From IMG/VR virus record IMGVR_UViG_3300022916_000005: 64,000 bases of DNA. The stretch is one strand, 5' to 3'. Made by a program: the position numbers and the translations under genes. The notes under the pieces were generated by a model. That model saw only the letters and a list, made by a program, of their open reading frames with translations. It had not been told where the DNA came from and searched no databases. The DNA comes from a virus. Position 1 is the first letter of the stretch. Each line of letters begins with the position of its first letter. This document shows, piece by piece, positions 1,714 through 63,986 of this stretch.

Positions 1714-3243
1714 ATGGAGACATGTTTAATTTGTGGAAAGGAAAAGAAAAGTAAAAGAGCATTGGCAACTCATCTTCAAATGGTTCACCACTTGAAATCA
1801 AAGGATTATACAATTCAATATATCTTAAAGGGAGAGCAACCAAAATGTTTGCTATGTAACAATGAGCCTCGTTATGTATCTTTTGAATTTAAACAATATT
1901 GCAAAGAACACAAGAACATTGCAGAAACAAAAGGAGGAAAGAGGGGAGGAAGAGGAGCGAAACTTTCTCTTGACGTTTTCGAAGAAAGATTAAAGGAATA
2001 TTGTTCTTTAAGAAATGTAGAAGATTTGAACAATAGGTATGAGGATTATATTAGCCAGAACGAAAAGAACATTAAAGTAAAATGTAACAAGTGCGAAGAG
2101 GAATTGACGACATCTTTAAATTATCTAAGAGATCATAGTTCAATATGCGGGAATTGTAGAGATCGTTCTACGTCTGAAGAGACAAAAGGCAAAATTTCAA
2201 ACACCTTAACGATGAAGAAGGAAGTATTTGAAAAAAGAGTACTGAATAAGTGCGACACGTTTAAAGTTTTAACAAAATATGAAGAATATGGCTCAAGAAA
2301 ATTACAAAAGAAACTGAAAGTAGAATGTGCAAAGTGTGGAGATATTACTAAAAGAACGCTACAACAACTTGACGAAGGGACTTTATGTTGGAAGTGTAAT
2401 CCGTCTTCAAAGCCGGAGAACGAAGTTGCCGAATGGGTAGAATCTCTTGGACTCGATGTTGTAAGAAACAGCAGAAAGATCATTGCTCCAAAAGAGATTG
2501 ATATTTACATTCCATCAAAAAAGGTTGCCATCGAATATAACGGATTGTATTGGCATAGTGAATTAAATAAAGAGAAATCATACCATTCAGATAAATCAAA
2601 GGCTTGCAAGGATAAGGGCATCTTTCTATTCCACGTGTTTTCAGATGATTGGGAACAGAAGCAAGATGTTGTTAAATCAATGATCAAAAACAAGTTAGGA
2701 CTTAACAAGACAAAGGTTGCAGCAAGAAAGTGCAAGATCATCGAGCAAGAGAAAAACAAACTAATGGATAAGTTTTTTAATGATAATCATTTATTAGGGC
2801 ATGTTCAAGCAACTAAAGGATTTTTCTTGGAATATAACGATCAGGTTGTTGCAGGAATTACGCTAAGAAAGCCTGCACACAGAAAATATAAAGGATCAGT
2901 TGAGGTTGCAAGGTTCACAACAAAGATCGATACAACAGTCCAAGGTGGATTTTCAAAACTTCTCAAGGCAGCAATCAAATGGGCAAAGGACAATGGTTAT
3001 GAAAAAGTTATTACATATGCAGACTTGTCTCACGGCAATGGCAATGTATATGAGAAGAACGGATTTACATTCCTAAACGAAACAAAGTTAAGTTATTGGT
3101 ATACCGATGGCATCTCACGCTACAATAGATTCAAATTCAGAGCACAAGATGGCAAAACAGAGAAACAAGTTGCAGAAGATAATGGTGTATTCAAGATCTT
3201 TGGTTGTGGGAATAATTTGTATGAACTGCCACTTTCTCCTTGA
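1714..3243 (+). CDS. Zn-finger / Hef-like PD-(D/E)xK homing endonuclease with C-terminal GNAT(Mom)-like region
   Basis: Multiple CxxC/C2H2 pairs. Nuclease motif SKPENEV...EIDIYIPSKKVAIEYNGLYWHS. C-terminal EVARF...GGFSKLLK...ITYADLSHGNGNVYEKNGF. Free-standing next to a conserved gene. Confidence 0.75.
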   Translation: METCLICGKEKKSKRALATHLQMVHHLKSKDYTIQYILKGEQPKCLLCNNEPRYVSFEFKQYCKEHKNIAETKGGKRGGRGAKLSLDVFEERLKEYCSLRNVEDLNNRYEDYISQNEKNIKVKCNKCEEELTTSLNYLRDHSSICGNCRDRSTSEETKGKISNTLTMKKEVFEKRVLNKCDTFKVLTKYEEYGSRKLQKKLKVECAKCGDITKRTLQQLDEGTLCWKCNPSSKPENEVAEWVESLGLDVVRNSRKIIAPKEIDIYIPSKKVAIEYNGLYWHSELNKEKSYHSDKSKACKDKGIFLFHVFSDDWEQKQDVVKSMIKNKLGLNKTKVAARKCKIIEQEKNKLMDKFFNDNHLLGHVQATKGFFLEYNDQVVAGITLRKPAHRKYKGSVEVARFTTKIDTTVQGGFSKLLKAAIKWAKDNGYEKVITYADLSHGNGNVYEKNGFTFLNETKLSYWYTDGISRYNRFKFRAQDGKTEKQVAEDNGVFKIFGCGNNLYELPLSP

Positions 3244-24164: not shown

Positions 24165-24193
24165 TTGACTATTTGGGGAACTTAGGGTATAAT
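24165..24193 (+). promoter_or_regulatory. Sigma70-type early promoter
   Basis: TTGACT-17 nt-TATAAT, followed by AGGAGG and the ATG at 24220. Confidence 0.8.
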
Positions 24194-24219: not shown

Positions 24220-24489
24220 ATGAAGGCGTATCGTGGAACATTTAAGAAGAAGAATGGGGAAAATAGGGACATGTTCTTTGTTCGTCTTTCTGACATGCCA
24301 ACGTTGGTAATGGAAGGACTTGTCAAAGGGACTGGCAAGAAGCGAACATTAGGAGAAGGATTGGAATTGGTTTATGATCTTGATGCAGATGGTTTTCGTA
24401 TTTTCAATTGGAAGGCTGCAATTGGAGATGTCGAAGATTTGGAAATTAGTGAAAGTAGATTTAATTTGACAGAAGGAGAATCCAAGTAA
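24220..24489 (+). CDS. Small SH3/WYL-like (DUF2693-type) protein
   Basis: GTFKKKNGENRDM...VYDLDADGFRIFNW pattern and a strong RBS. Confidence 0.6.
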   Translation: MKAYRGTFKKKNGENRDMFFVRLSDMPTLVMEGLVKGTGKKRTLGEGLELVYDLDADGFRIFNWKAAIGDVEDLEISESRFNLTEGESK

Positions 24490-24791
24490 TGGAAGTGTAT
24501 AGAGTAACGATCAACGACAAGGGTACCACTATTTGGTATAACGAAGATGGTGTTTATCACCGCAATGATGGTCCTGCCATCAAAGACGCTGACGGTGCCA
24601 AATTTTGGTATCAAAATGGCAAGTGTCATCGCATTGACGGCCCTGCTGCCATTTACACCGATGGCAGGAAAAAATGGTATATTGAAGGTCTAAAATACAC
24701 AGAAGAAGACTATAACAAAAAATTAAATCCTTCATGTGAAGGACAAACTGTGACAATTGAAGGCGTCACATACAAACTGACAAAGGTATAA
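24489..24791 (+). CDS. HRxDGPA 23-aa repeat protein (2 units)
   Basis: YHRNDGPA and CHRIDGPA units. DNA is close to the repeats at 57-64 kb. Confidence 0.85.
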   Translation: MEVYRVTINDKGTTIWYNEDGVYHRNDGPAIKDADGAKFWYQNGKCHRIDGPAAIYTDGRKKWYIEGLKYTEEDYNKKLNPSCEGQTVTIEGVTYKLTKV

Positions 24792-53598: not shown

Positions 53599-54186
53599 AT
53601 GAACTATAGATGCAATCGAGAGCAAGAAAATCTCGAAGACGTACAGGAATGTCATTCTTCTGTCATTATTGTAGAAGAGGCACGCATTATTGGGATGTAT
53701 GGCGATATTGATTTTGAAAAGACGGCAGAAGTTATTCACGCCCTTGACCATTTTGGAATGGACGAAGATAATAAACAACCTGTTAGGTTTAACATTTCAA
53801 CTCCAGGTGGAGATCTTGTAAATGCTCTTGCGATTTATGACGCAATGATGGAACTAAGATCGAAAGGTGTTGAGATTCATACTAAAGGAGTGGGAGAAGT
53901 GTCTTCGGCAGGGGTTTGTTTAATAGCTGCTGGATCAAAGAGAGTGATGGGTCCAAATTGTCGCTTAATGATCCACGGTCTTTATTCTACTTTTAACGGA
54001 ACAATTGCAGAAATTGAAGACGAGATCAGAGAAACAAAGATCAGAGAAAAACAATATATTAAGATTCTAAAAGATCATAGCGAACTAACCGAAGAACAAT
54101 ATCAGCACTTTATTGATTCTGGCAAGAATGTGTTCATTTCTGCAGAATCTGCTTTAAAGTTCGGTTTAATTGACGAAATTCTATAA
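53599..54186 (+). CDS. clpP: ClpP-like protease
   Basis: ISTPGG...ALAIYD, GEVSSAG (catalytic Ser), RLMIH and ALKFGLIDEI. Confidence 0.88.
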   Translation: MNYRCNREQENLEDVQECHSSVIIVEEARIIGMYGDIDFEKTAEVIHALDHFGMDEDNKQPVRFNISTPGGDLVNALAIYDAMMELRSKGVEIHTKGVGEVSSAGVCLIAAGSKRVMGPNCRLMIHGLYSTFNGTIAEIEDEIRETKIREKQYIKILKDHSELTEEQYQHFIDSGKNVFISAESALKFGLIDEIL

Positions 54187-54206
54187 AACAACAACAAGAG
54201 GAAGAA

Positions 54207-55766
54207 ATGAAACTATATTCAAGAGAAGAAGAGTTAAAGGCATCCTTGATTAAGGGTGCAGAACAAATTGCAAGCATTGTATCAAGCACTTTGGGTCCAA
54301 ATGGTTGTCCTGTCATTTTAAAAGCAAAGGGAGAAAAACCTTTAATTACGAAAGATGGAGTAACTGTTGCAAGATTTACAACATACGAAGACCCTTTTGA
54401 GAATGTCGCTGCATCAATCATCAAACAAGCATCAGAAGAAACAAATACCACTTGTGGAGATGGAACAACAACTACAACAATCTTGGCTAGTGCTATCTTT
54501 AAAGAGTCACAAAAATATATCTCTCTTGGTATTTCTCCTTACAAGTTAAAGAGGGAGATTGATGTAGTTGTAGAAAAGATCGTTACTCAAATTGCAGAAC
54601 TTGCAAAACCAATTGGTTCATTAAAAGAGATTCGAGATATTGCAAGGATTTCTGCAAACAACGATTCAAAGATTGGAGATCTTGTTGCAGATGCTATCGA
54701 TCAGATCGGTAGAGATGGAGCAATCACTATTGAAGAGGCCAGATCATTAGAGACAACGCTAGAGATTGCTGAAGGGTATAGATTCGATTCAGGATATGTT
54801 GCAAAAGATTTTATTACAGACACAAAGAATGGCTTGGCAAAGTTAGACAATCCTTACATTCTTGTCACTGATGAATCAATTGACAACATCAAATCAATTG
54901 CAAAGATTTTAGAGACTGTTGCAAGAGATGAATCGTCAATTGTTCTTATTGCAAACGATTTTGGGAAAGAAGTGTTGTCAACATTATTGATTAACCATAT
55001 TCGAGGAACAATCAAGAATGTAGCAATTAAGGCTCCAAGATACGGAGAAGAAAGAAGAGCAATTCTAGAAGATATTGCATTGGCAACTGGTTCAACGTTT
55101 ATTAACAAATTGGCAGGACTTAAAGTATCTGCCGTAGAGTTGAAGGATCTTGGAAGGGCAAAATCTATTGAGATTTCAAGTACAGAAACGATCATTGCCG
55201 AAGCTAATGGAGAACAAGGAAAGATCGAAGAACAGGTAGAGAAGTTAAAGTCATTGATTAAGCAGACAAATAATATGAAGGAAGCAGAGCGGATTCAAGA
55301 CAGAATTAATCAATTGTCTGCTGCTGTTGGGATCATCAAGGTAGGTGGTAGAACTGAAGTAGAAGTGACAGAGAAGAAATTTAGAATTGAAGATGCCTTA
55401 GAAGCTGCAAAATCTGCCATCGAAGAAGGAATTGTCCCTGGTGGTGGTACAACATATTTAAGAGCGATTTTAGACATTAATGACCATTCCGATGTAGAGT
55501 ATGGATACAAAATTGTTTACAATGCAGTAATGGAACCGCTGAAGATCATGGCTGCAAGAACAAAAGACACATCAGAAAGACAAATTTTTAACAAGTTGAC
55601 CAACGATGACACGAGCGGATATGACTTTGCAAATGAAGAATTTGTAGATGACATGTTTGAAATTGGAATTGTGGATCCTGCAAAAGTATTGAAATATGCA
55701 TTAAGAAATGCAGCAAGTGCAGCAACTACATTACTCATTACAAATCATGCCGCGATAGAAGAATAA
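54207..55766 (+). CDS. groEL: Chaperonin GroEL
   Basis: STLGPNG, ITKDGVTVA, GDGTTT, KAPRYG, GIVPGGG and GIVDPAKV. Confidence 0.96.
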   Translation: MKLYSREEELKASLIKGAEQIASIVSSTLGPNGCPVILKAKGEKPLITKDGVTVARFTTYEDPFENVAASIIKQASEETNTTCGDGTTTTTILASAIFKESQKYISLGISPYKLKREIDVVVEKIVTQIAELAKPIGSLKEIRDIARISANNDSKIGDLVADAIDQIGRDGAITIEEARSLETTLEIAEGYRFDSGYVAKDFITDTKNGLAKLDNPYILVTDESIDNIKSIAKILETVARDESSIVLIANDFGKEVLSTLLINHIRGTIKNVAIKAPRYGEERRAILEDIALATGSTFINKLAGLKVSAVELKDLGRAKSIEISSTETIIAEANGEQGKIEEQVEKLKSLIKQTNNMKEAERIQDRINQLSAAVGIIKVGGRTEVEVTEKKFRIEDALEAAKSAIEEGIVPGGGTTYLRAILDINDHSDVEYGYKIVYNAVMEPLKIMAARTKDTSERQIFNKLTNDDTSGYDFANEEFVDDMFEIGIVDPAKVLKYALRNAASAATTLLITNHAAIEE

Positions 55767-56998: not shown

Positions 56999-57027
56999 TT
57001 GACAATCCCCTCCATTCGTATTATAAT
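56999..57027 (+). promoter_or_regulatory. Sigma70 early promoter of cassette A
   Basis: TTGACA-17 nt-TATAAT, perfect consensus. Confidence 0.88.
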
Positions 57028-57057: not shown

Positions 57058-57312
57058 ATGATTCAATTCCTTCTCGCTTGTTTGGGTCTTTTTCTGATCA
57101 TATTCCTCATTTTGGTAAGTCGTTATTATGAGGAAAAATTGGAGGAAGAAGTCCATAAAACAAGATGCCCAAAATGTGGTGGAATGTGGAAGATACACAA
57201 CTGGTTTCGCGGTATGGTGGTTCTTTCTTGCCCCAAATATCACGAGTTAAACCATGTCAGCCTTTCCTCATTTGAACAATTTGAAAAATATTGCAACAAC
57301 AAGGAAGGATAA
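57058..57312 (+). CDS. Membrane-anchored Zn-ribbon protein (cassette A)
   Basis: N-terminal hydrophobic helix, then CPKC...CPKYH. Confidence 0.75.
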   Translation: MIQFLLACLGLFLIIFLILVSRYYEEKLEEEVHKTRCPKCGGMWKIHNWFRGMVVLSCPKYHELNHVSLSSFEQFEKYCNNKEG

Positions 57313-57830
57313 TGATCAAGCCATATCAAATTTGGGCAGATGGCACCGTCATTTATAATCGCGATCACTATACTCCAAGACCTGATGGTTGTGCCATTAG
57401 TATCCCAGAGAAGATAATCATTTGGTATCAAAATAACAAGTATCACCGCACTGATGGTCCTGCCATTGAATATGCCAATGGTGGCAAAGAATGGTATCAA
57501 AATAACAAGCGTCACCGCTTTGACGGCCCTGCCATTGAATTTGCCAATGGCGACAAATCTTGGTACATTGATGGCAAGTGTCACCGCATTGACGGCCCTG
57601 CCATTGAATATGCCAATGGTACCAAATTTTGGTTTCAAAATGGCAAATATCACCGCATTGACGGCCCTGCCATTGAATATGCCAATGGTGACAAATTTTG
57701 GTATCAAAATGGCAAACATCACCACATTGACGGCCCTGCCGTTGAATATGCCAATGGTACCAAATTTTGGTATATTGATGGTGTCGAATATTCCGAGCAT
57801 GACTATAAAATTGAGATGAGCAACAAATGA
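57312..57830 (+). CDS. HRxDGPA 23-aa repeat protein (5 units)
   Basis: N-cap YQIWADGTVIY, five 69-bp units at 57423-57767, C-cap WYIDGVEYSEHDY. The start overlaps the previous stop (TAATG). Confidence 0.9.
   Translation: MIKPYQIWADGTVIYNRDHYTPRPDGCAISIPEKIIIWYQNNKYHRTDGPAIEYANGGKEWYQNNKRHRFDGPAIEFANGDKSWYIDGKCHRIDGPAIEYANGTKFWFQNGKYHRIDGPAIEYANGDKFWYQNGKHHHIDGPAVEYANGTKFWYIDGVEYSEHDYKIEMSNK
57423..57767 (+). repeat. 5 x 69-bp tandem repeat
   Basis: Consensus TGGTATCAAAATGGCAAGTATCACCGCATTGACGGCCCTGCCATTGAATATGCCAATGGTGACAAATTT. Confidence 0.97.
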
Positions 57831-58450
57831 AAAATAAAAATAAAAATAACAGCAGCAGTAACAATCATTTAGATCGAATTAATGCACTTCTTATTGATAA
57901 GCTTGAATATCTTGATGACAAAACAAAAGAAGTATTGACATCTTTTGAGAATCATGTTACAAATAGAGGGAGCTTAACGATGAATCAAGAAAAATGGTTC
58001 ATCAAGATGGAAGAAGAATATAGTGATGAGAATATCGCTATTATGGATGAATGGGAATATGGAGACGAAGAAAAAGAAAACGCTACAATTGCTGCACATT
58101 ACAATTCTGCGGGAAGATGGCACACAGATCTGTCAGCTAAGATTCTGATCGATTATGTTCCAACATACACGGAATATAGAAGCTTGACAGAGAATTCTTA
58201 TGCCAAGAAAGTAATTGAAGAAACAAAGAAGACTCCTAGATTTGCAGTTGGTAATTTGGTTCAAGCAAGGGCAACAGCAAGCTTGGGATATAAAAATAAA
58301 CCAGGGATGATTGTAAAGATAGTTAATGATCCTATTCTTGTTTCTGCTCGTGGAGCAAAAGAATATATGGTAAAGTTTTATCATGGCCCTCTTTTGACAG
58401 TTCAAGAGAGGTGGCTAAAATTTCAAAAGGGAGAAAAGAAGGGGAAATAA
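57827..58450 (+). CDS. Hypothetical protein with C-terminal KOW-like domain
   Basis: 207 aa, with PRFAVGNLVQ...PGMIV...VQERWLK at the C-terminus. Confidence 0.7.
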   Translation: MKNKNKNNSSSNNHLDRINALLIDKLEYLDDKTKEVLTSFENHVTNRGSLTMNQEKWFIKMEEEYSDENIAIMDEWEYGDEEKENATIAAHYNSAGRWHTDLSAKILIDYVPTYTEYRSLTENSYAKKVIEETKKTPRFAVGNLVQARATASLGYKNKPGMIVKIVNDPILVSARGAKEYMVKFYHGPLLTVQERWLKFQKGEKKGK

Positions 58451-58672
58451 ATGAATTTAATAACAATACAAGAAGAAGAAAATCCACCAGAAACAGTGTA
58501 TCTGCCAGCGAACACATTGGTTCTAAATAAGGACAATAGCCTTGAATTTTATACAGAAGGGGAACCACAAACGGCAATTATGATCAATTGGATGGAAAAT
58601 TATAGAAAGTGTTTGGTAATGATAAAACACAACAGATTAGTTTACGTAGACAAAAATAAAATATATAAATAA
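58451..58672 (+). CDS. Hypothetical protein
   Basis: 73-aa ORF with an RBS. Confidence 0.6.
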   Translation: MNLITIQEEENPPETVYLPANTLVLNKDNSLEFYTEGEPQTAIMINWMENYRKCLVMIKHNRLVYVDKNKIYK

Positions 58673-58684
58673 AAAGGAGATATA

Positions 58685-58951
58685 ATGGTCAATTTAACAA
58701 GAGTAGTAAAAATTACAACGTACGATTGTTCTGGAGAAAGTTGCTATAGATTAAGCTCGATTGATGTGAACCCGAAAAATGTAGAAACAATTGAAGAAGA
58801 TGTGTCGATGACTAATCTTCATAGTAAAACTCCGATTAGTAAAGAGATTGATAAGTATGCAAGGTTTACCAAAATTGCATTAACAAGCGGAAAAGAAATC
58901 ACAGTAATCGGGGAAAATGGCAAAATTTTAAGCAAAATCAAACTAGGATAA
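58685..58951 (+). CDS. Small protein, FlbD-like fold candidate
   Basis: IDVNPKNVETIEE...TKIALTSGKEITVIG, with an AAGGAG RBS. Confidence 0.5.
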   Translation: MVNLTRVVKITTYDCSGESCYRLSSIDVNPKNVETIEEDVSMTNLHSKTPISKEIDKYARFTKIALTSGKEITVIGENGKILSKIKLG

Positions 58952-58958
58952 TCAAAAG

Positions 58959-59369
58959 ATGAAATGGTATCAGATCTTCTCAGATGGAACCGTTATTTAT
59001 GATGATGATTTAAAACAGGATACGATATACCCTGACGGTTGTTCCATTGAAATTCCAACAAAATCTTTGAGATGGTTTAAGAACAACAAGCTTCATCGAG
59101 ATGGTGGTCCTGCCGCCGTTTATACCGATGGTACCAAACATTGGTTTCAAAATGGCAAACATCACCGCATTGACGGCCCTGCCATTGAACGTGCCAATGG
59201 TGACAAATTTTGGTATCAAAATGGCAAACATCACCGCATTGACGGCCCTGCCTGTGAATATGCCAATGGTGGCAAATATTGGTACATCGAAGGGATCAAA
59301 TACACAAAGGAAGGACATCAAATTGTTGTCGATTCAATGACAAAGGAGAATGAGAATGAAAACACCTGA
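58959..59369 (+). CDS. HRxDGPA 23-aa repeat protein (3 units)
   Basis: N-cap YQIFSDGTVIY, units at 59073-59279, C-cap WYIEGIKY. Confidence 0.9.
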   Translation: MKWYQIFSDGTVIYDDDLKQDTIYPDGCSIEIPTKSLRWFKNNKLHRDGGPAAVYTDGTKHWFQNGKHHRIDGPAIERANGDKFWYQNGKHHRIDGPACEYANGGKYWYIEGIKYTKEGHQIVVDSMTKENENENT

Positions 59370-59565
59370 TTACAGTACGTATATTGTTTTTGCAGATGGT
59401 GTAGTTGTTTTCCCTAGAAATTGTAGTTCACTTTCTAGGATCAATCCTTCTTCGTGGAATATTGTCAATTCAAAGTACGAAGTGTTTATTTATTGTGTAG
59501 ATGGGAAGACAGTGACAAAAAAGGTGTGGATAAAGTCTAACCTTTCTTGTGATGAAGAAACGTAA
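59350..59565 (+). CDS. Small protein, possible repeat-less relative of HRxDGPA family
   Basis: YIVFADGVVVF resembles the N-cap and YCVDGKTV resembles the C-cap. Confidence 0.55.
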   Translation: MRMKTPDYSTYIVFADGVVVFPRNCSSLSRINPSSWNIVNSKYEVFIYCVDGKTVTKKVWIKSNLSCDEET

Positions 59566-59621
59566 TTCAAAACTATTTATATCGTATGAATAAGCATTCA
59601 AAATAAGGATGAACATGCGAT

Positions 59622-59882
59622 ATGAACGAACATGACTTTGATGAAAAAGAATTATATGAATGGATTGGTTCTGTAAAAGAATCTTTGTCAACATTAAAAG
59701 AAAATTCATTAGATGTAAAAGATCAGATAACAAAGTTGGCAACCAGTGTCAGCGTATTGTGTACCAAACATGCTACTTTAGAAAATGACGTTAAGAACAA
59801 GGCAAGATTTTGGGGAGCGATTGCTTCGGGTGTTGTAAGTGTTGGAATGGGTCTCATTTTCGTCCTAATAAAAATCGTATAA
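59622..59882 (+). CDS. Coiled-coil protein with C-terminal TM helix (holin/XhlA-like candidate)
   Basis: Heptad-rich N-terminus and a hydrophobic C-terminal helix, preceded by CTATTTA (59573). Confidence 0.55.
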   Translation: MNEHDFDEKELYEWIGSVKESLSTLKENSLDVKDQITKLATSVSVLCTKHATLENDVKNKARFWGAIASGVVSVGMGLIFVLIKIV

Positions 59883-60057
59883 AAACAGCAGCATAAGGAG
59901 TATAACGATATGGATATATTATTCATTATTGTATTTATTATTGCATTGACACATATAGAACAAGAACGAAATAACAACAAATATAAAGAAGAATGTAAAA
60001 CATCAAGAGCGGCAAGATTACTTAACAGACACTACCCAGATCGTCAATAGAACTACC

Positions 60058-60086
60058 TTGACAACCCTTTCAGTTTGAGATATAAT
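60058..60086 (+). promoter_or_regulatory. Sigma70 early promoter of cassette B
   Basis: TTGACA-17 nt-TATAAT, perfect consensus. The leader nearly matches cassette A. Confidence 0.88.
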
Positions 60087-60116
60087 AAGACATAAATTGA
60101 TACAGGTAGGTCTAAA

Positions 60117-60359
60117 ATGTTAGGTTATTTTCTTATTGGTTTGATTATCTTTTCGTTAATTTATGCAATTTGGGGAGAAATCGATCTAAATAAAAGAATT
60201 GAAGAATGCAAATGTCCAGAATGTAACGTAAACTTTATGATCTTTGCAAAAATTCATAGTGTTGCGTTTGTGCAGTGTCCAAAGTGTGGATTGCATAATC
60301 AGTATGTTAGTAGGTATACCATCAAAGATTTTGAAAAGCGTTACAACAATGGCATTTAA
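60117..60359 (+). CDS. Membrane-anchored Zn-ribbon protein (cassette B)
   Basis: N-terminal hydrophobic helix, then CPEC...CPKC. Paralog of 57058. Confidence 0.78.
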   Translation: MLGYFLIGLIIFSLIYAIWGEIDLNKRIEECKCPECNVNFMIFAKIHSVAFVQCPKCGLHNQYVSRYTIKDFEKRYNNGI

Positions 60360-60756
60360 TTCTTACCAAATATGGGCAGATGGCACCGTCATTTATGATG
60401 GCGATTATGATACTCCAAAGCCTGACGGTTGTGCCATTGGTATCCCAGACAAGGCAATTGCTTGGTATCAAAATAACAAGTATCACCGCATTGACGGCCC
60501 TGCCGTTGAATGTGCCAGTGGTGACAAATTTTGGTATCAAAATGGCGAGTATCACCGCATTGACGGCCCTGCCATTGAATATATCAATGGTACCAAATAT
60601 TGGTTTCAAAATGGCAAACATCACCGCATTGACGGCCCTGCCCGCGAATATGCCAATGGTGAAAAATATTGGTACATTGAAGGTGTCTGTTATTTCGAGC
60701 ACAAATACAACATCAAGATGAAAACTTATCACAATGAAAAAGAAAAAGAAGCATAA
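60349..60756 (+). CDS. HRxDGPA 23-aa repeat protein (3 units)
   Basis: N-cap YQIWADGTVIY, units at 60463-60669, C-cap WYIEGVCY. Confidence 0.9.
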   Translation: MAFNSYQIWADGTVIYDGDYDTPKPDGCAIGIPDKAIAWYQNNKYHRIDGPAVECASGDKFWYQNGEYHRIDGPAIEYINGTKYWFQNGKHHRIDGPAREYANGEKYWYIEGVCYFEHKYNIKMKTYHNEKEKEA

Positions 60757-60879
60757 CCCATACAACGTCTTGAAAGGGAAGATTAGAGAGGATCACTTCA
60801 AAGATGGTGGAACTTTGGCAGAATGGCGAGGAAAAGCAGCAACATTCCCAGATAAAAAGAAAAAGGAGAGTAAAAACAA

Positions 60880-63189
60880 ATGCAGAGGAAAATTACGTAT
60901 TCCTTCAAAATAGGTGACATCATCTTTGACCAACTTAGTGGATGTCATCTTGTCGTGGTCAAAAAAGATGAATATGGAAATTTTATCCTACAGTCATTAA
61001 CGACAAAATATAGATTACCGATGCCTCCTACAGATTGGTTTGATGAATTCATTCTTATTTTTGAGACAAAAGATGAAGAATAAAAAAGTCAGTCACTACA
61101 ATCTACATGACATCATTTGGGATGATTATCTTGGTGGATATTACTTCGTTGTCAAAATGATTAATAAAAATGCTATACTTGGAGAAAGAATTTCAAACAG
61201 ATTAGATGAGGGTGATAATCAAATATCTGTCCTTCTTAGCGAATGGCTTGAGGAATTTACATTAATATCGAGGATCCCAAAATGAAATTTCCAAGATTAC
61301 AAAAAGATGATATTATTCTATGGTATAACGTTAATAAAAGCTTTCACAAAACGTATCTTGTCAATACTATATGTGTGGTTTCTTCCGTTTGTGGTGAGGA
61401 ACAGTATGAGACAAACAGAGGAGGGACTCTTTATCGCAGAGATCTGATCGATTATGTAAACTTAACAAACCAAAAAACAAATTGGCGCATTTTGTTTATC
61501 TTTTCAAAAGAGAAGGGGATCGTTTGGCAAAGCGATTGGAGAGTAACATGAATACTGATGAAGTAGCGACCCTTTTTTGTGAAGAAGGAGACATCCTTAG
61601 ATATTCGTATTTAAATGGCGAGACCTATTATTGCTATATAACTTCTGTCAAAGATGGCTATGCAAGAGGAATTCGTTGTGGTGGTAGAGTTGGTGGACCT
61701 TACATGTTTTATGAGAATTGTATTTCGATTGGTAAATGGAAATTGGTGGCAAGATTGTCTGATGGAGAATAAGATGTATCATTCCGTTATTCTAAAAAAG
61801 TACAAACACTTGAGACAAAAAGTAAGACAGAATATTCACAAATATGTTCCAAAGAAGTATCATAAACATATTCAGTATTTGATCAATAAGAAGATTCTAT
61901 AACAACAAAAGGAGGTAACAAGCATGAAGCGATTTATGATTCCAAGAATTGCAAACTGTTGCAACGGTTCTATAATTTGGGCTGGCATCCCATCAACTGC
62001 CAAATTCTTCCATTGACCATCCGTTCAGAATGGGTTATAATCTACCTATGAAAGACAAAAAAGTACACATTTAAAGATGTTGCTTAGTAAAACTGATTGG
62101 AGAATCTTGGTCAAATATGAAAACTGATTACAAAATGAAGTTCAAAGATGTGGCAATTGGTGATATCTTTTATACCAAGTTTTTTGGACCTTTTTTTATT
62201 GTAGAAGTTATCAAACAAGAGAGAGGATATTATAAAAATAAATATGTCATTCGCACTCCAAAAGGGATTGATTACGCATATGCCAATGATGACGAAAGGG
62301 TAAATTGGTTTAAGATTAAGACATCAGACTACTATGCAAAAGTGAAATCTGACAAAGAACAGGATACGAAATAAAATGTCATCATTTATTCCAAAAAAAC
62401 ATTCAATTCTTAAGATCCAAGATTCTCTTTTTCACAACCCATCCACGCATAGTCTTATCTTTGTTCTTGAACGTTATGAGGATGGATTATGCAAAAGACA
62501 AAATTGTGAAACTCCATGTAATCGAAACGTGTCTCCTTTAGAAAGTGATGACCCTATTACTATTGTCTATATAATGTCTGGGAAGGATAAGGGTACTACA
62601 AAATGTTGGTCATCTTATGCCTTCAATCATGTAGAGAAAGTTACAACTATTTTTGAGATAGATCAAGATGAAGTATAAAGACATCAAGGTAGGAGATATA
62701 TTTCGTGTCATTAATAATGATAAGACTTTTTCTACGACTCCTTTTCTAATTAATTTTGTCATGGAGACTTCGGCACCTTATTTCGAAATTGGATACATAT
62801 TGGTTGGTTCTCATCTTGGCAGATTAAGTCTTAATAAAGAAGATGGTGTACGGTGGCACAGAGTTGCAACATCATATGACAGAGAGAGGAATAGGATGAG
62901 TCGTAGTGTAAAAAAGAATGCCGTTCATTCTTTTACAACTAGAGGTTCGAGAGCAGGAGCACAAAAAAAGTGGAAAAAGGGAAATAACAAGAAAAGTAGG
63001 CGTGATGTAAATGAAATCACCAAACTTGTTTCTTTGTTGACGGAAGAGGGAATCGACGAAGTTGAAGATAAACTTGATCTGCCATTGACAAGAAAGAAAA
63101 AGACTGGAGACATTTGGGATTCTCCTTGTGATGGAAAGACACGAGTATATCAAGATGAAGATTATTACGAAGAGGCACTAAGAAAGTGA
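60880..63189 (+). other. Array 7 of small ORFs, mostly SH3/KOW-like (60880, 61073, 61282, 61548, 62117, 62376, 62668)
   Basis: FKIGDII, YNLHDII, LQKDDII, EEGDIL, VAIGDIF and IKVGDIF starts. Confidence 0.65.
62013..62041 (+). promoter_or_regulatory. Sigma70-type early promoter
   Basis: TTGACC-17 nt-TATAAT, heading the run of genes that ends in the 9-unit repeat gene. Confidence 0.75.
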
Positions 63190-63986
63190 TCAAGCTATAT
63201 CAAATTTGGGCAGATGGCACCGTTATTTACGATGACGATCATGATACTCCAAAGCCTGACGGTTGTGCCATTGGTATCCCAGACAAGACAATCACTTGGT
63301 ATCAAAATGGCAAACTTCACCGCACTGACGGCCCTGCCATTGAATATGCCAATGGTGACAAATCTTGGTATCAAAATAGCAAACTTTACCGCATTGACGG
63401 CCCTGCCATTGAATATGCCAATGGTGACAAACATTGGTATCAAAATGGCAAGCGTCACCGCATTGACGGCCCTGCCGTTGAACATGCCAATGGTGACAAA
63501 TCTTGGTGTCAAAATGACAAGTGTCACCGCATTGACGGCCCTGCCGTTGAATTTGCCAATGGCGACAAATCTTGGTACATTGATGGCAAGTGTCACCGCA
63601 TTGACGGCCCTGCCATTGAACATGCCAATGGTGCCAAATATTGGTATCAAAATGACACACTTCACCGCATTGACGGCCCTGCCGCCATTTATGTCAATGG
63701 TACCAAACATTGGTTTCAAAATGGCAAATATCACCGCATTGACGGCCCTGCCCGCGAATATGCCAATGGTGGCAAAGAATGGTATCAAAATAACAAGCGT
63801 CACCGCATTGACGGCCCTGCCATTGAATCTGCCAATGGTGCCAAATTTTGGTATCAAAATAACAAGCGTCACCGCATTGACGGCCCTGCCATTGAACATG
63901 TCAATGGTGACAAATCTTGGTACATTGATGGGAAGCGCTATTCCGAGCATGACTACAACATCAAAATAAGGAAACTAAATGATTAA
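63186..63986 (+). CDS. HRxDGPA 23-aa repeat protein (9 units)
   Basis: GTG start overlapping the previous stop, N-cap, nine 69-bp units, C-cap WYIDGKRYSEHDY. Confidence 0.92.
   Translation: MIKLYQIWADGTVIYDDDHDTPKPDGCAIGIPDKTITWYQNGKLHRTDGPAIEYANGDKSWYQNSKLYRIDGPAIEYANGDKHWYQNGKRHRIDGPAVEHANGDKSWCQNDKCHRIDGPAVEFANGDKSWYIDGKCHRIDGPAIEHANGAKYWYQNDTLHRIDGPAAIYVNGTKHWFQNGKYHRIDGPAREYANGGKEWYQNNKRHRIDGPAIESANGAKFWYQNNKRHRIDGPAIEHVNGDKSWYIDGKRYSEHDYNIKIRKLND
63297..63917 (+). repeat. 9 x 69-bp tandem repeat
   Basis: Same consensus as 57423-57767. The core TGACGGCCCTGCC is invariant across all nine units. Confidence 0.97.

What the first reader, a model, noticed from the sequence alone, without database searches (positions are those of the whole stretch)
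57312..63986. Dispersed modular repeat-protein family with fixed scaffold and hypervariable positions: candidate combinatorial binder system
Seen: five genes (24489, 57312, 58959, 60349, 63186) carry 2, 5, 3, 3 and 9 copies (22 units) of a 69-bp/23-aa unit, W(Y/F)QNGKxHRIDGPAxExANGxKx. Four share an N-cap (YQIWADGTVIY...PDGC.I.IP.K) and all five share a WYI(D/E)G C-cap. The scaffold DNA is almost invariant, while amino acids change repeatedly at the same few positions: 5 (G/N/S/D), 7 (Y/R/C/H/L), 15 (I/V/A/R/C), 17 (Y/F/H/R/C/S), 18 (A/T/I/V), 21 (G/D/T/A/E) and 23 (F/S/Y/H/E). Known: this spacing resembles MORN-variant beta-hairpin repeats, which form binding surfaces. Inference: the phage keeps a repertoire of cap-repeat-cap binders whose specificity is set by unit number and variable residues (TALE/VLR-like logic), expressed early and plausibly used for anti-defence or host takeover.
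Basis: partly seen in the sequence, partly recalled or inferred. Interest (0 to 1): 0.85.

Follow-up and report, generated by a model that had tools for sequence, protein, structure and literature searches.

The report
Phage MORN-like repeat binder gene family
An uncultured large phage carries at least nine genes built from 2 to 9 copies of a 23-residue beta-hairpin unit, and the units swap pieces between genes and change fast at seven fixed positions, so the genes look like a diversifying set of binding proteins whose targets are unknown.

Summary
The five window genes hold 2, 5, 3, 3 and 9 units of 69 bp. The 122.7-kb contig holds nine such genes and 36 units.

- **Fold:** single-layer beta-hairpin array. 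The best structural matches are MORN proteins (MORN1, junctophilin, MORN4). No MORN sequence model matches; only Pfam DUF6745 does, weakly.
- **Family size:** about 33,500 cluster representatives, mostly viral and all uncharacterised.
- **Unusual evolution in this phage:**
  - Silent-site diversity in the units is 0.15, against 0.37-0.70 in the caps of the same genes.
  - Seven positions (5, 7, 15, 17, 18, 21, 23) have pN about 0.42.
  - My own M1a/M2a codon test gives LRT 78 and omega about 7, and picks exactly those seven sites.
  - Unit sets from three other phages give omega 0.18-0.27; two show no positive-selection signal and one only a weak one.
- **Recombination between genes:** exact tracts of 115 and 74 nt are shared between paralogs, and two internal units are C-cap/unit chimeras.
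- **Expression:** perfect sigma-70 promoters precede two of the cassettes.
- **Not a DGR:** no reverse transcriptase is present and the changes are not adenine-specific.
- **Untested:** binding targets, any anti-defence role, and whether the variable residues share one face.

Earlier notes of this scan describe similar families in at least four other phage genomes.

The parts
24489..24791 (+). Gene A, class II: short EVYRV-type N-cap, 2 units (the first degenerate), WYIEG C-cap and a C-terminal tail of the C.G..V.I.G..YKL type
   Evidence: The same tail occurs in other phages' proteins P0083, P0089 and P0107.
56999..57027 (+). Perfect sigma-70 consensus promoter (TTGACA-17-TATAAT) heading the cassette with gene B
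   Evidence: 4 perfect sites in the window against 0.10 expected.
57058..57312 (+). 84-aa protein with a membrane helix and a zinc ribbon. Its stop overlaps the start of gene B.
   Evidence: It is a paralogue of the 60117 gene (31% identity, E 1e-8).
57312..57830 (+). Gene B, class I: N-cap, 5 units, C-cap
   Evidence: DUF6745 scores 30.6 bits.
57561..57629 (+). Chimeric unit B3. Its first 14 nt are identical to the start of the C-caps of genes E and G. The rest is an ordinary unit.
   Evidence: It lies inside the 74-nt exact tract shared with gene E.
58959..59369 (+). Gene C, class I with a divergent N-cap, 3 units, C-cap
60058..60086 (+). Second perfect sigma-70 consensus promoter, heading the cassette with gene D
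60117..60359 (+). 80-aa paralogue with a membrane helix and a zinc ribbon. It overlaps the start of gene D.
   Evidence: Weak FmdB-type zinc-ribbon match.
60349..60756 (+). Gene D, class I, 3 units
   Evidence: The only base that differs from the sister contig lies here (N to D in unit 1).
60483..60597 (+). 115-nt tract identical to a tract in gene I (contig position 122374), which is 30 kb away and has a different N-cap
63186..63986 (+). Gene E, class I, 9 units, GTG start overlapping the upstream stop
   Evidence: AlphaFold model at pLDDT 81.
63573..63641 (+). Chimeric unit E5, with the same C-cap/unit junction as B3

Best explanation
The genes are a lineage-specific multigene family. There are seven class I genes with a private N-cap and two class II genes with the widespread cap and tail. 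They encode small, soluble, single-layer beta-sheet repeat proteins of MORN-like fold.

The 69-bp units are kept alike at silent sites by repeated recombination and gene conversion among the nine genes. That recombination also moves blocks of units between genes and changes array length through cap/unit crossovers. Against this homogenised background, seven residues per unit are under strong diversifying selection, so all 35 canonical units differ.

The genes sit in operons of small genes behind strong sigma-70-type promoters and are translationally coupled to the gene upstream.

Inferred mechanism: the proteins are made inside the infected cell, probably early. Each acts as an elongated binding surface for a host or rival-element partner that itself varies, such as defence or other conflict proteins. 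The family then gives the phage a repertoire of specificities.

Shown: anatomy, fold class, recombination, selection signature, promoters. Inferred: protein binding, timing, and the nature of the targets.
For: - **Anatomy:**
- **Fold:** AlphaFold pLDDT 81. The 13 best Foldseek matches are all MORN proteins, with E down to 3.4e-7 and probability 0.98-1.00. They include MORN4/Myo3a and junctophilin/CaV1.1 peptide complexes, which are protein-binding MORN sheets.
- **Homogenised silent sites:** pS is 0.149 in the units, against 0.37 and 0.61-0.70 in the caps of the same genes. Units within one gene are no more alike than units in different genes (0.844 against 0.838). Exact tracts of 115 and 74 nt are shared between genes. 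Chimeric cap/unit junctions exist.
- **Selection:**
  - pN/pS is 3.8 at the seven positions and 0.35 elsewhere.
  - Parsimony counts give 5.5 silent against 99.5 replacement changes at those codons.
  - M2a against M1a gives LRT 78.3, p 1e-17, omega 7.3. Posterior is at least 0.97 at sites 5, 7, 15, 17, 18, 21 and 23 only.
  - Controls: other phages' unit sets give pS 0.43-0.64 and omega 0.18-0.27. LRT is 0 in two sets and 14.6 in one.
- **Promoters:**
- **Coupling to the upstream gene:**
- **Relatives:** mostly viral.
Against: - No partner, target or phenotype is known for any member of this repeat family.
- PADLOC, NCBIfam and PHROGs give no functional hit.
- Placement of the variable residues on the model could not be examined. 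A simple strand-parity argument, which is my inference only, would put 15 and 17 on the opposite face from 7, 18, 21 and 23.
- The codon test used a fixed tree from 69-nt units that recombine, and recombination inflates such tests. The diversity contrast does not depend on a tree, but the sites were first noticed because they vary.
- VIA-align Z for MORN1 is only 6.6 and ties with OspA single-layer sheets.
- The host is unknown, so 'early' rests on the promoter consensus alone.
Confidence: 0.55

Rival explanations
1. The proteins bind membrane or cell envelope rather than proteins. On this reading they dock on lipid or cell-wall components, as was classically proposed for MORN repeats and for MORN-type domains in phage endolysins. 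Some would act together with the small membrane-anchored zinc-ribbon proteins encoded just upstream.
For: - Two of the nine genes directly follow paralogous genes for a membrane helix plus zinc ribbon, in the same promoter-headed cassette.
- The fold matches MORN proteins.
- PMC9238414 states that MORN repeats occur in phage endolysins and are strongly enriched in marine phage long reads.
Against: - Seven of the nine genes have unrelated upstream neighbours.
- The proteins are near neutral (pI 5.3-9.1) and have no signal peptide or membrane helix.
- No lytic domain is fused.
- Strong diversifying selection is hard to explain for binding an invariant lipid.
Confidence: 0.13
2. There is no adaptive repertoire. 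The family is a selfishly expanding, recombination-prone repeat with little function. The pattern would come from relaxed constraint at exposed positions plus constraint or conversion at silent sites.
For: - Repeats expand easily.
- In three other phages the same positions vary at about the neutral rate (omega about 1 at those sites; overall omega 0.18-0.27).
- The distant GroEL-sharing relative has no such genes within 10 kb on either side of its GroEL gene.
Against: - Relaxed constraint cannot push replacement diversity (0.42) to nearly three times silent diversity (0.149).
- The same C/T transitions are common at first codon positions and absent at third positions of the same codons.
- All reading frames are intact, scaffold omega is 0.35, and the caps are under purifying selection.
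Confidence: 0.1
3. The units form a modular nucleic-acid-binding code in the manner of TALE, PUF or PPR proteins. Each unit would read one base through its variable residues.
For: Near-identical DNA repeats with a few hypervariable codons resemble TALE arrays.
Against: - The residue combinations do not fall into a few classes. All 35 units are distinct.
- The proteins are not basic.
- The fold is a beta sheet of MORN type, and the solved MORN complexes bind peptides.
- Seven variable sites per unit is far more than the known codes use.
Confidence: 0.04
4. Targeted hypermutation, DGR-like or otherwise, writes the variable codons.
For: Variation is confined to first and second codon positions of a few codons with a fixed third base, which looks superficially like DGR AAY codons.
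Against: - No reverse transcriptase is found in the 122.7-kb contig, while the control genomes scored.
- Several variable columns are C/T or G/A only, or lack A altogether, so the changes are not adenine-specific.
- No non-coding template copy exists: all 36 units lie in the nine genes.
- The contig is only 59% complete, so absence of the enzyme is not proven.
Confidence: 0.02

Closest known systems
Eukaryotic MORN repeat proteins (MORN1 6T68/6T4R/6T69/6T4D, junctophilin 7RXE/7RXQ, MORN4 6JLE, radial spoke RSP1/10, SET7/9 N-domain)
   Same: - 23-residue period.
- Elongated single-layer antiparallel beta-hairpin sheet.
- Best structural matches.
- Conserved W and G-K-x-H spacing.
- Solved complexes show the sheet binding peptides.
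   Different: - No sequence match to Pfam MORN or MORN_2, or to any PDB chain, even with a profile.
- H-R-x-D-G-P-A replaces the MORN G-x-G motif.
- Small stand-alone phage proteins with their own caps.
- VIA-align Z is only 5-6.6.
Pfam DUF6745 (PF20530) and the uncharacterised 'HRxDGPA' repeat family
   Same: - The only Pfam family that scores above its cut-off (30.6 and 31.1 bits against 27).
- Thousands of relatives carry it.
   Different: - The match covers only about positions 62-98 of a 206-position model, which is the shared repeat and not the domain.
- No paper mentions DUF6745.
MORN, ankyrin and FNIP multigene families of giant viruses (Pandoravirus, Mimivirus, Megavirus)
   Same: - Lineage-specific expansions of repeat-protein paralogues in large viral genomes (PMC5753266, PMC6418002).
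- Mimivirus R871 and Megavirus proteins are structural relatives.
   Different: - Here the setting is a tailed phage of bacteria.
- The genes are much smaller.
- There is a measured signature of concerted evolution plus omega well above 1.
YwqK (COG2849, MORN_2) immunity proteins of LXG deaminase toxins
   Same: - Bacterial MORN-variant repeat proteins that work by binding and neutralising a conflict protein.
- One relative (P0045) is so named by JGI.
   Different: - No MORN_2 match for the window proteins.
- No toxin gene next to them.
TALE arrays, lamprey VLRs and DGR variable proteins (analogies for the sequence pattern)
   Same: - Nearly invariant repeat DNA with diversity focused on a few codons.
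- Modules are rearranged by recombination.
   Different: - Different folds.
- No DNA-binding evidence, no dedicated assembly or mutagenesis machinery, and no silent donor cassettes.

Membership tests
MORN repeat (Pfam PF02493 / MORN_2 PF07661) | Tandem units of about 23 residues | tested here: met
   TRF period 69 bp with no indels. All 35 units are in register at 23 aa.
MORN repeat (Pfam PF02493 / MORN_2 PF07661) | Match to the family HMM above the gathering score | tested here: not met
   No MORN or MORN_2 hit for any of the five proteins at E up to 1. Relatives P0093 and P0045 score 29.5 and 20.5 bits against a cut-off of 29.6. A profile search of PDB sequences finds nothing.
MORN repeat (Pfam PF02493 / MORN_2 PF07661) | Single-layer beta-hairpin sheet fold like the solved MORN arrays | tested here: met
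   The 13 best Foldseek hits are all MORN proteins, with E 3.4e-7 to 8e-4. VIA-align gives Z 6.6, rmsd 4.5 over 162 residues to 6T4R, but this is below Z 8 and ties with OspA sheets. The fold class is therefore supported, while homology is not proven.
MORN repeat (Pfam PF02493 / MORN_2 PF07661) | Signature Y-x-G-x-W-x-x-G-K-x-H-G-x-G | tested here: not met
   The units read W-Y-Q-N-G-K-x-H-R-x-D-G-P-A. W and G-K-x-H are present, one residue is added before G-K, and there is no G-x-G. The canonical signature is from my own knowledge.
DUF6745 (PF20530) | Score above the gathering cut-off over the domain | tested here: inconclusive
   Genes B and E pass (30.6 and 31.1 bits against 27). Genes A, C and D do not (19.3, 16.3, 13.3). 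Only model positions 62-98 of 206 are matched.
YwqK-type antitoxin/immunity protein | Adjacent cognate toxin gene | tested here: not met
   The upstream neighbours are zinc-ribbon proteins, a DnaJ-like protein, an Rnl2-like ligase and unknowns. No toxin or defence family hit was found.
Diversity-generating retroelement target | Reverse transcriptase and template repeat nearby | tested here: not met
   No RVT_1 match in the 122.7-kb contig, while the controls scored. No non-coding unit copy exists. The contig is 59% complete, so the absence is not final.
Diversity-generating retroelement target | Variation only where the template has adenine | tested here: not met
   Variable columns include C/T-only (19, 49, 53) and G/A-only (13, 14, 52) columns.
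Repeat-protein multigene family under diversifying selection (functional class, not a homology family) | Replacement rate above silent rate at defined surface positions, several paralogues, exchange between them | tested here: met
   with negative controls. Surface placement of the positions was not tested.

The most novel reading that the evidence does not exclude
The nine genes are a recombination-fed combinatorial recognition repertoire. The 69-bp modules are exchanged among expressed paralogues, and cap/unit crossovers reset array length. Positive selection on seven residues per module lets the phage population keep pace with variable host defence or competitor proteins. This would be a phage counterpart of the modular recognition logic of VLRs or TALEs, built on a MORN-like sheet and recurring in many large marine phages.
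Probability: 0.25. Interest if true: 0.85.

Novelty: new variant of a known kind. Interest (0 to 1): 0.62.

Why it matters
Repeat-protein gene families are well known in giant viruses and in cellular immune and effector systems. This very large HRxDGPA / DUF6745-type family has about 33,500 sequence clusters, and the nearest small relatives are 94-100% viral, yet it has no described function and no literature.

This phage offers an unusually clean case. An internal control (the caps) and external controls (other phages) show that the repeats are homogenised by recombination while seven residues per unit are driven apart. That is the signature expected of proteins locked in a molecular arms race.

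If the targets are host defence proteins, the family would be a widespread, unrecognised class of phage counter-defence or takeover binders. It would also be a natural, compact beta-sheet scaffold for engineered binders. If the targets are something else, the family still marks a main axis of conflict in marine phage-host pairs.

Tried and rejected
- **DGR or hypermutation:** no reverse transcriptase, no adenine bias, no silent template.
- **Sequence membership in MORN:** no Pfam MORN hit. There are no PDB sequence hits with a single protein or with a 3-unit profile.
- **Function by library:** PHROGs returns only unknown-function families. NCBIfam and PADLOC return nothing useful.
- **N-cap relatives:** the word search finds none. 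A metagenome scan with the cap alignment returns only 36-53% identical stretches that look like degenerate units.
- **Closely related phages for comparing arrays:**
  - megablast to GenBank phages gives no match.
  - The neighbouring 394-aa protein has no relatives.
  - GroEL finds one distant contig (47% identity) with no repeat genes within 10 kb on either side of the match.
  - The only close relative (L001) is 99.995% identical with identical arrays, so array polymorphism could not be judged.
- **Second AlphaFold model (gene D, 7-row alignment):** pLDDT is 61. It suggests beta strands in the N-cap but is too weak to use.
- **Mapping the variable positions on the model:** not possible, because the tools return no coordinates.
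- **Fusion partners in long relatives:** Pfam scans of eight of them give only DUF6745 and, in one, LRV/HEAT repeats.
- **Twelve-gene count:** another first-reader note lists 12 genes and 48 units. The record I hold ends 19 nt after the ninth gene, so I could confirm only nine.
- **Overlapping alternative-frame ORFs across the arrays:** treated as by-products of stop-free repeats. Third positions vary freely in other phages.


Full report
**1. What is there**

The window is bases 32001-96000 of a 122,708-bp IMG/VR virus contig. CheckV rates it 59% complete and GC is 37%. It is a large myovirus. It encodes a major head protein, a tail sheath, a DnaB-like helicase, ribonucleotide reductase, a DNA polymerase and a GroEL.

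TRF finds four 69-bp arrays at the stated places, with 82-87% matches and almost no indels. Translation gives five genes at 24489, 57312, 58959, 60349 and 63186 with 2, 5, 3, 3 and 9 units.

A search of the whole contig adds four genes at contig positions 96386 (4 units), 97446 (4), 112511 (3) and 122297 (3). The total is nine genes and 36 units. All 35 canonical units differ in protein and in DNA.

Seven genes share the YQIW.DGTVIY...PDGC N-cap (class I). The genes at 24489 and at contig position 122297 instead start with an E-x-Y-x-V-type strand and end with a C.G..V.I.G..YKL tail (class II). Proteins of other phages carry that same tail.

The second half of the class I N-cap (PDGCAI) reads like a degenerate unit (IDGPAI). 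The cap has no detectable relatives elsewhere.

An independently assembled contig from another sample matches 20,453 bp, including six of the genes, with a single mismatch. The arrays are therefore not assembly artefacts.

**2. Fold and family**

- Pfam gives only weak DUF6745 matches confined to model positions 62-98. No MORN hit appears.
- PDB sequence searches are empty.
- An AlphaFold model of the 9-unit protein has mean pLDDT 81 and reaches 90-98 over the last four units. It shows short paired strands throughout and a C-terminal helix.
- The 13 best Foldseek hits are all MORN proteins: MORN1 of three protists, junctophilins and a radial spoke protein. MORN4/Myo3a and SET7/9 come next.
- VIA-align gives Z 6.6 at best, on a par with OspA single-layer sheets. 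I call the fold MORN-like without claiming proven homology.
- The repeat family is very large:
  - More than 7,740 hits in the length-limited search.
  - 33,535 cluster representatives at E up to 1e-3, some with dozens of units.
  - Fusions to DUF7666, DUF3310 and RING domains.
- The nearest clusters are 94-100% viral.
- Structural relatives include many uncultured tailed phages, Agrobacterium phage Atu_ph07, Celeribacter phage P12053L, Mimivirus R871 and Megavirus proteins, all uncharacterised.
- Other large phage contigs carry many copies. One 293-kb contig and one 62-kb contig each give about 30 matches.

**3. The evolutionary signature**

*Silent against replacement diversity.* Over the 35 units, third-codon columns are nearly frozen: 7 of the 23 are invariant, and only the columns in codons 6 and 15 are clearly polymorphic. 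First and second positions of codons 5, 7, 15, 17, 18, 21 and 23 are highly polymorphic. Mean heterozygosity is 0.47 there, against 0.10 at third positions.

| Codon set | pS | pN | pN/pS |
|---|---|---|---|
| All 23 codons | 0.149 | 0.164 | 1.10 |
| Seven variable codons | - | - | 3.8 |
| Other 16 codons | - | - | 0.35 |

At codons 7, 17 and 23, C/T changes are common at the first base and essentially absent at the third base. Mutation bias therefore cannot explain the pattern.

*Internal control.* The caps of the same genes have pS 0.37 (N-cap) and 0.61-0.70 (C-cap), with pN/pS 0.62 and 0.34-0.36. The genes are old duplicates, yet their repeats are homogenised at silent sites.

*External control.* Unit sets from other phages have pS 0.43-0.64 and pN/pS 0.35-0.45.

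*Tree-based counts.* These give 23.5 silent and 129.5 replacement changes overall. At the seven codons the counts are 5.5 silent and 99.5 replacement.

*Codon model.* My own implementation of M1a against M2a gave the following:

| Unit set | Units | M0 omega | LRT (M2a vs M1a) | Sites with high posterior for omega > 1 |
|---|---|---|---|---|
| This phage | 35 | 2.39 | 78.3 (p 1e-17, omega 7.3, about a third of sites) | 5, 7, 15, 17, 18, 21, 23 (posterior at least 0.97) |
| L003 | 19 | 0.27 | 14.6 (p 7e-4) | 21, 23 |
| L005 | 22 | 0.27 | 0 | no site class with omega above 1 |
| L009 | 19 | 0.18 | 0 | no site class with omega above 1 |

The next highest posterior is 0.72, at site 3.

*Caveats.* The tree comes from the same short, recombining sequences, and recombination inflates such tests. 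The diversity contrast and the cap control do not depend on a tree.

**4. Recombination**

- Units within a gene are no more alike than units in different genes (0.844 against 0.838). Most units have their nearest neighbour in another gene.
- Genes D and I lie 30 kb apart and have different caps, yet they share a 115-nt exact tract. Genes B and E share a 74-nt tract.
- The internal units B3 and E5 begin with 14 nt identical to the C-cap start of genes E and G, then continue as ordinary units. They are fossil crossovers between a C-cap and a unit. This is how an array is lengthened in frame.
- No reverse transcriptase is present, the changes are not adenine-specific, and there is no silent template. 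A DGR is therefore excluded as far as a 59% complete contig allows.

**5. Context and expression**

- Every one of the nine genes starts at or overlaps the stop of the gene upstream.
- The upstream partners are unrelated to one another. They include two paralogous proteins with a membrane helix and a zinc ribbon (57058, 60117), a DnaJ-like protein, an Rnl2-like ligase and unknowns.
- Perfect TTGACA-17-TATAAT promoters occur four times in the window, against 0.10 expected. Two of them head the cassettes made of a zinc-ribbon gene and a repeat gene, at 56999 and 60058.
- Sites matching 11 of 12 bases precede other family members, for example at 24165, and at contig position 97360 upstream of gene G.
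- This fits transcription by the host polymerase, which is early in most large lytic phages. The timing is inferred.
- The proteins have no signal peptide or membrane helix and are near neutral.

**6. Reading**

The best-supported account is a family of intracellular MORN-like binding proteins. Their modules are shuffled among paralogues and their exposed residues are under diversifying selection, as expected for proteins that engage variable partners in a conflict.

The solved MORN complexes in the hit list bind peptides on the sheet (6JLE, 7RXQ). One relative is annotated as a YwqK-type immunity protein. Both make protein binding the most likely activity.

The targets, the anti-defence idea and the one-face clustering remain untested.

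The rivals are membrane or envelope binding, non-adaptive expansion, a nucleic-acid code and targeted mutagenesis. All are weaker for the reasons listed under each.

**7. Novelty**

The literature searches found no paper on DUF6745. They found no study of MORN-like families in phages.

The closest statements are these:
- MORN-repeat proteins are 37-fold enriched in marine phage long reads because repeats break assemblies (PMC9238414).
- Giant viruses carry MORN multigene families (PMC5753266; PMC6418002).

Earlier notes of this scan describe similar 23-residue HRxDGPA families in at least four other phage genomes. One follow-up reached a similar reading, so the phenomenon is recurrent.

What is particular here is the measured combination: homogenised silent sites, omega well above 1 at seven positions, and direct recombination junctions.

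Noticed in passing
window 57058-57312 and 60117-60359: Two paralogous small proteins (84 and 80 aa, 31% identity) with an N-terminal membrane helix and a CxxC...CxxC/H zinc ribbon. Each sits behind a perfect sigma-70 promoter and overlaps the start of a repeat gene. One gives a weak PADLOC hit (PDC-M14A, E 3.8e-5).
   Followed up: partly
window 53599-55766 and contig 96849-97445: The phage encodes its own GroEL (519 aa), a ClpP-like protease and a DnaJ-like protein with a J domain and a CXXCXGXG zinc finger. That is an unusual chaperone and protease set for a phage.
   Followed up: no
window 1714-3243: A 509-aa HNH/homing endonuclease gene lies directly after the major head protein gene (37-1584).
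   Followed up: no
contig 111606-112511 (locus L048): A 301-aa protein with an EKIHGTS motif, like the adenylylation motif of T4 Rnl2-type RNA ligases (from my own knowledge). It lies immediately upstream of repeat gene H and shares a stop/start overlap with it.
   Followed up: no
window 60880-63189: A second family of small (60-100 aa, one of 173 aa) aromatic-rich proteins that start with an (I/V)GDI(I/F)-type motif. It is interleaved with the repeat genes, for example at 60880, 61040, 62117 and 62668.
   Followed up: no
window 60349-60756 against locus L001 10001-10453: The only base difference in 20,453 bp between two independent contigs lies in repeat gene D. It changes N to D at unit position 4. 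This is one event, so it carries no statistical weight.
   Followed up: partly
window 63195-63969: Long ORFs in two other frames run across the 9-unit array (251 aa each, both strands). They are by-products of a stop-free 69-bp repeat and should not be annotated as genes.
   Followed up: partly
loci L003, L005, L009: Other uncultured phage contigs carry dense clusters of the same repeat genes: 19 units in 3 kb of L003, about 30 matches in a 293-kb contig and about 27 in a 62-kb contig. Their silent sites are ordinary and nearly saturated.
   Followed up: partly
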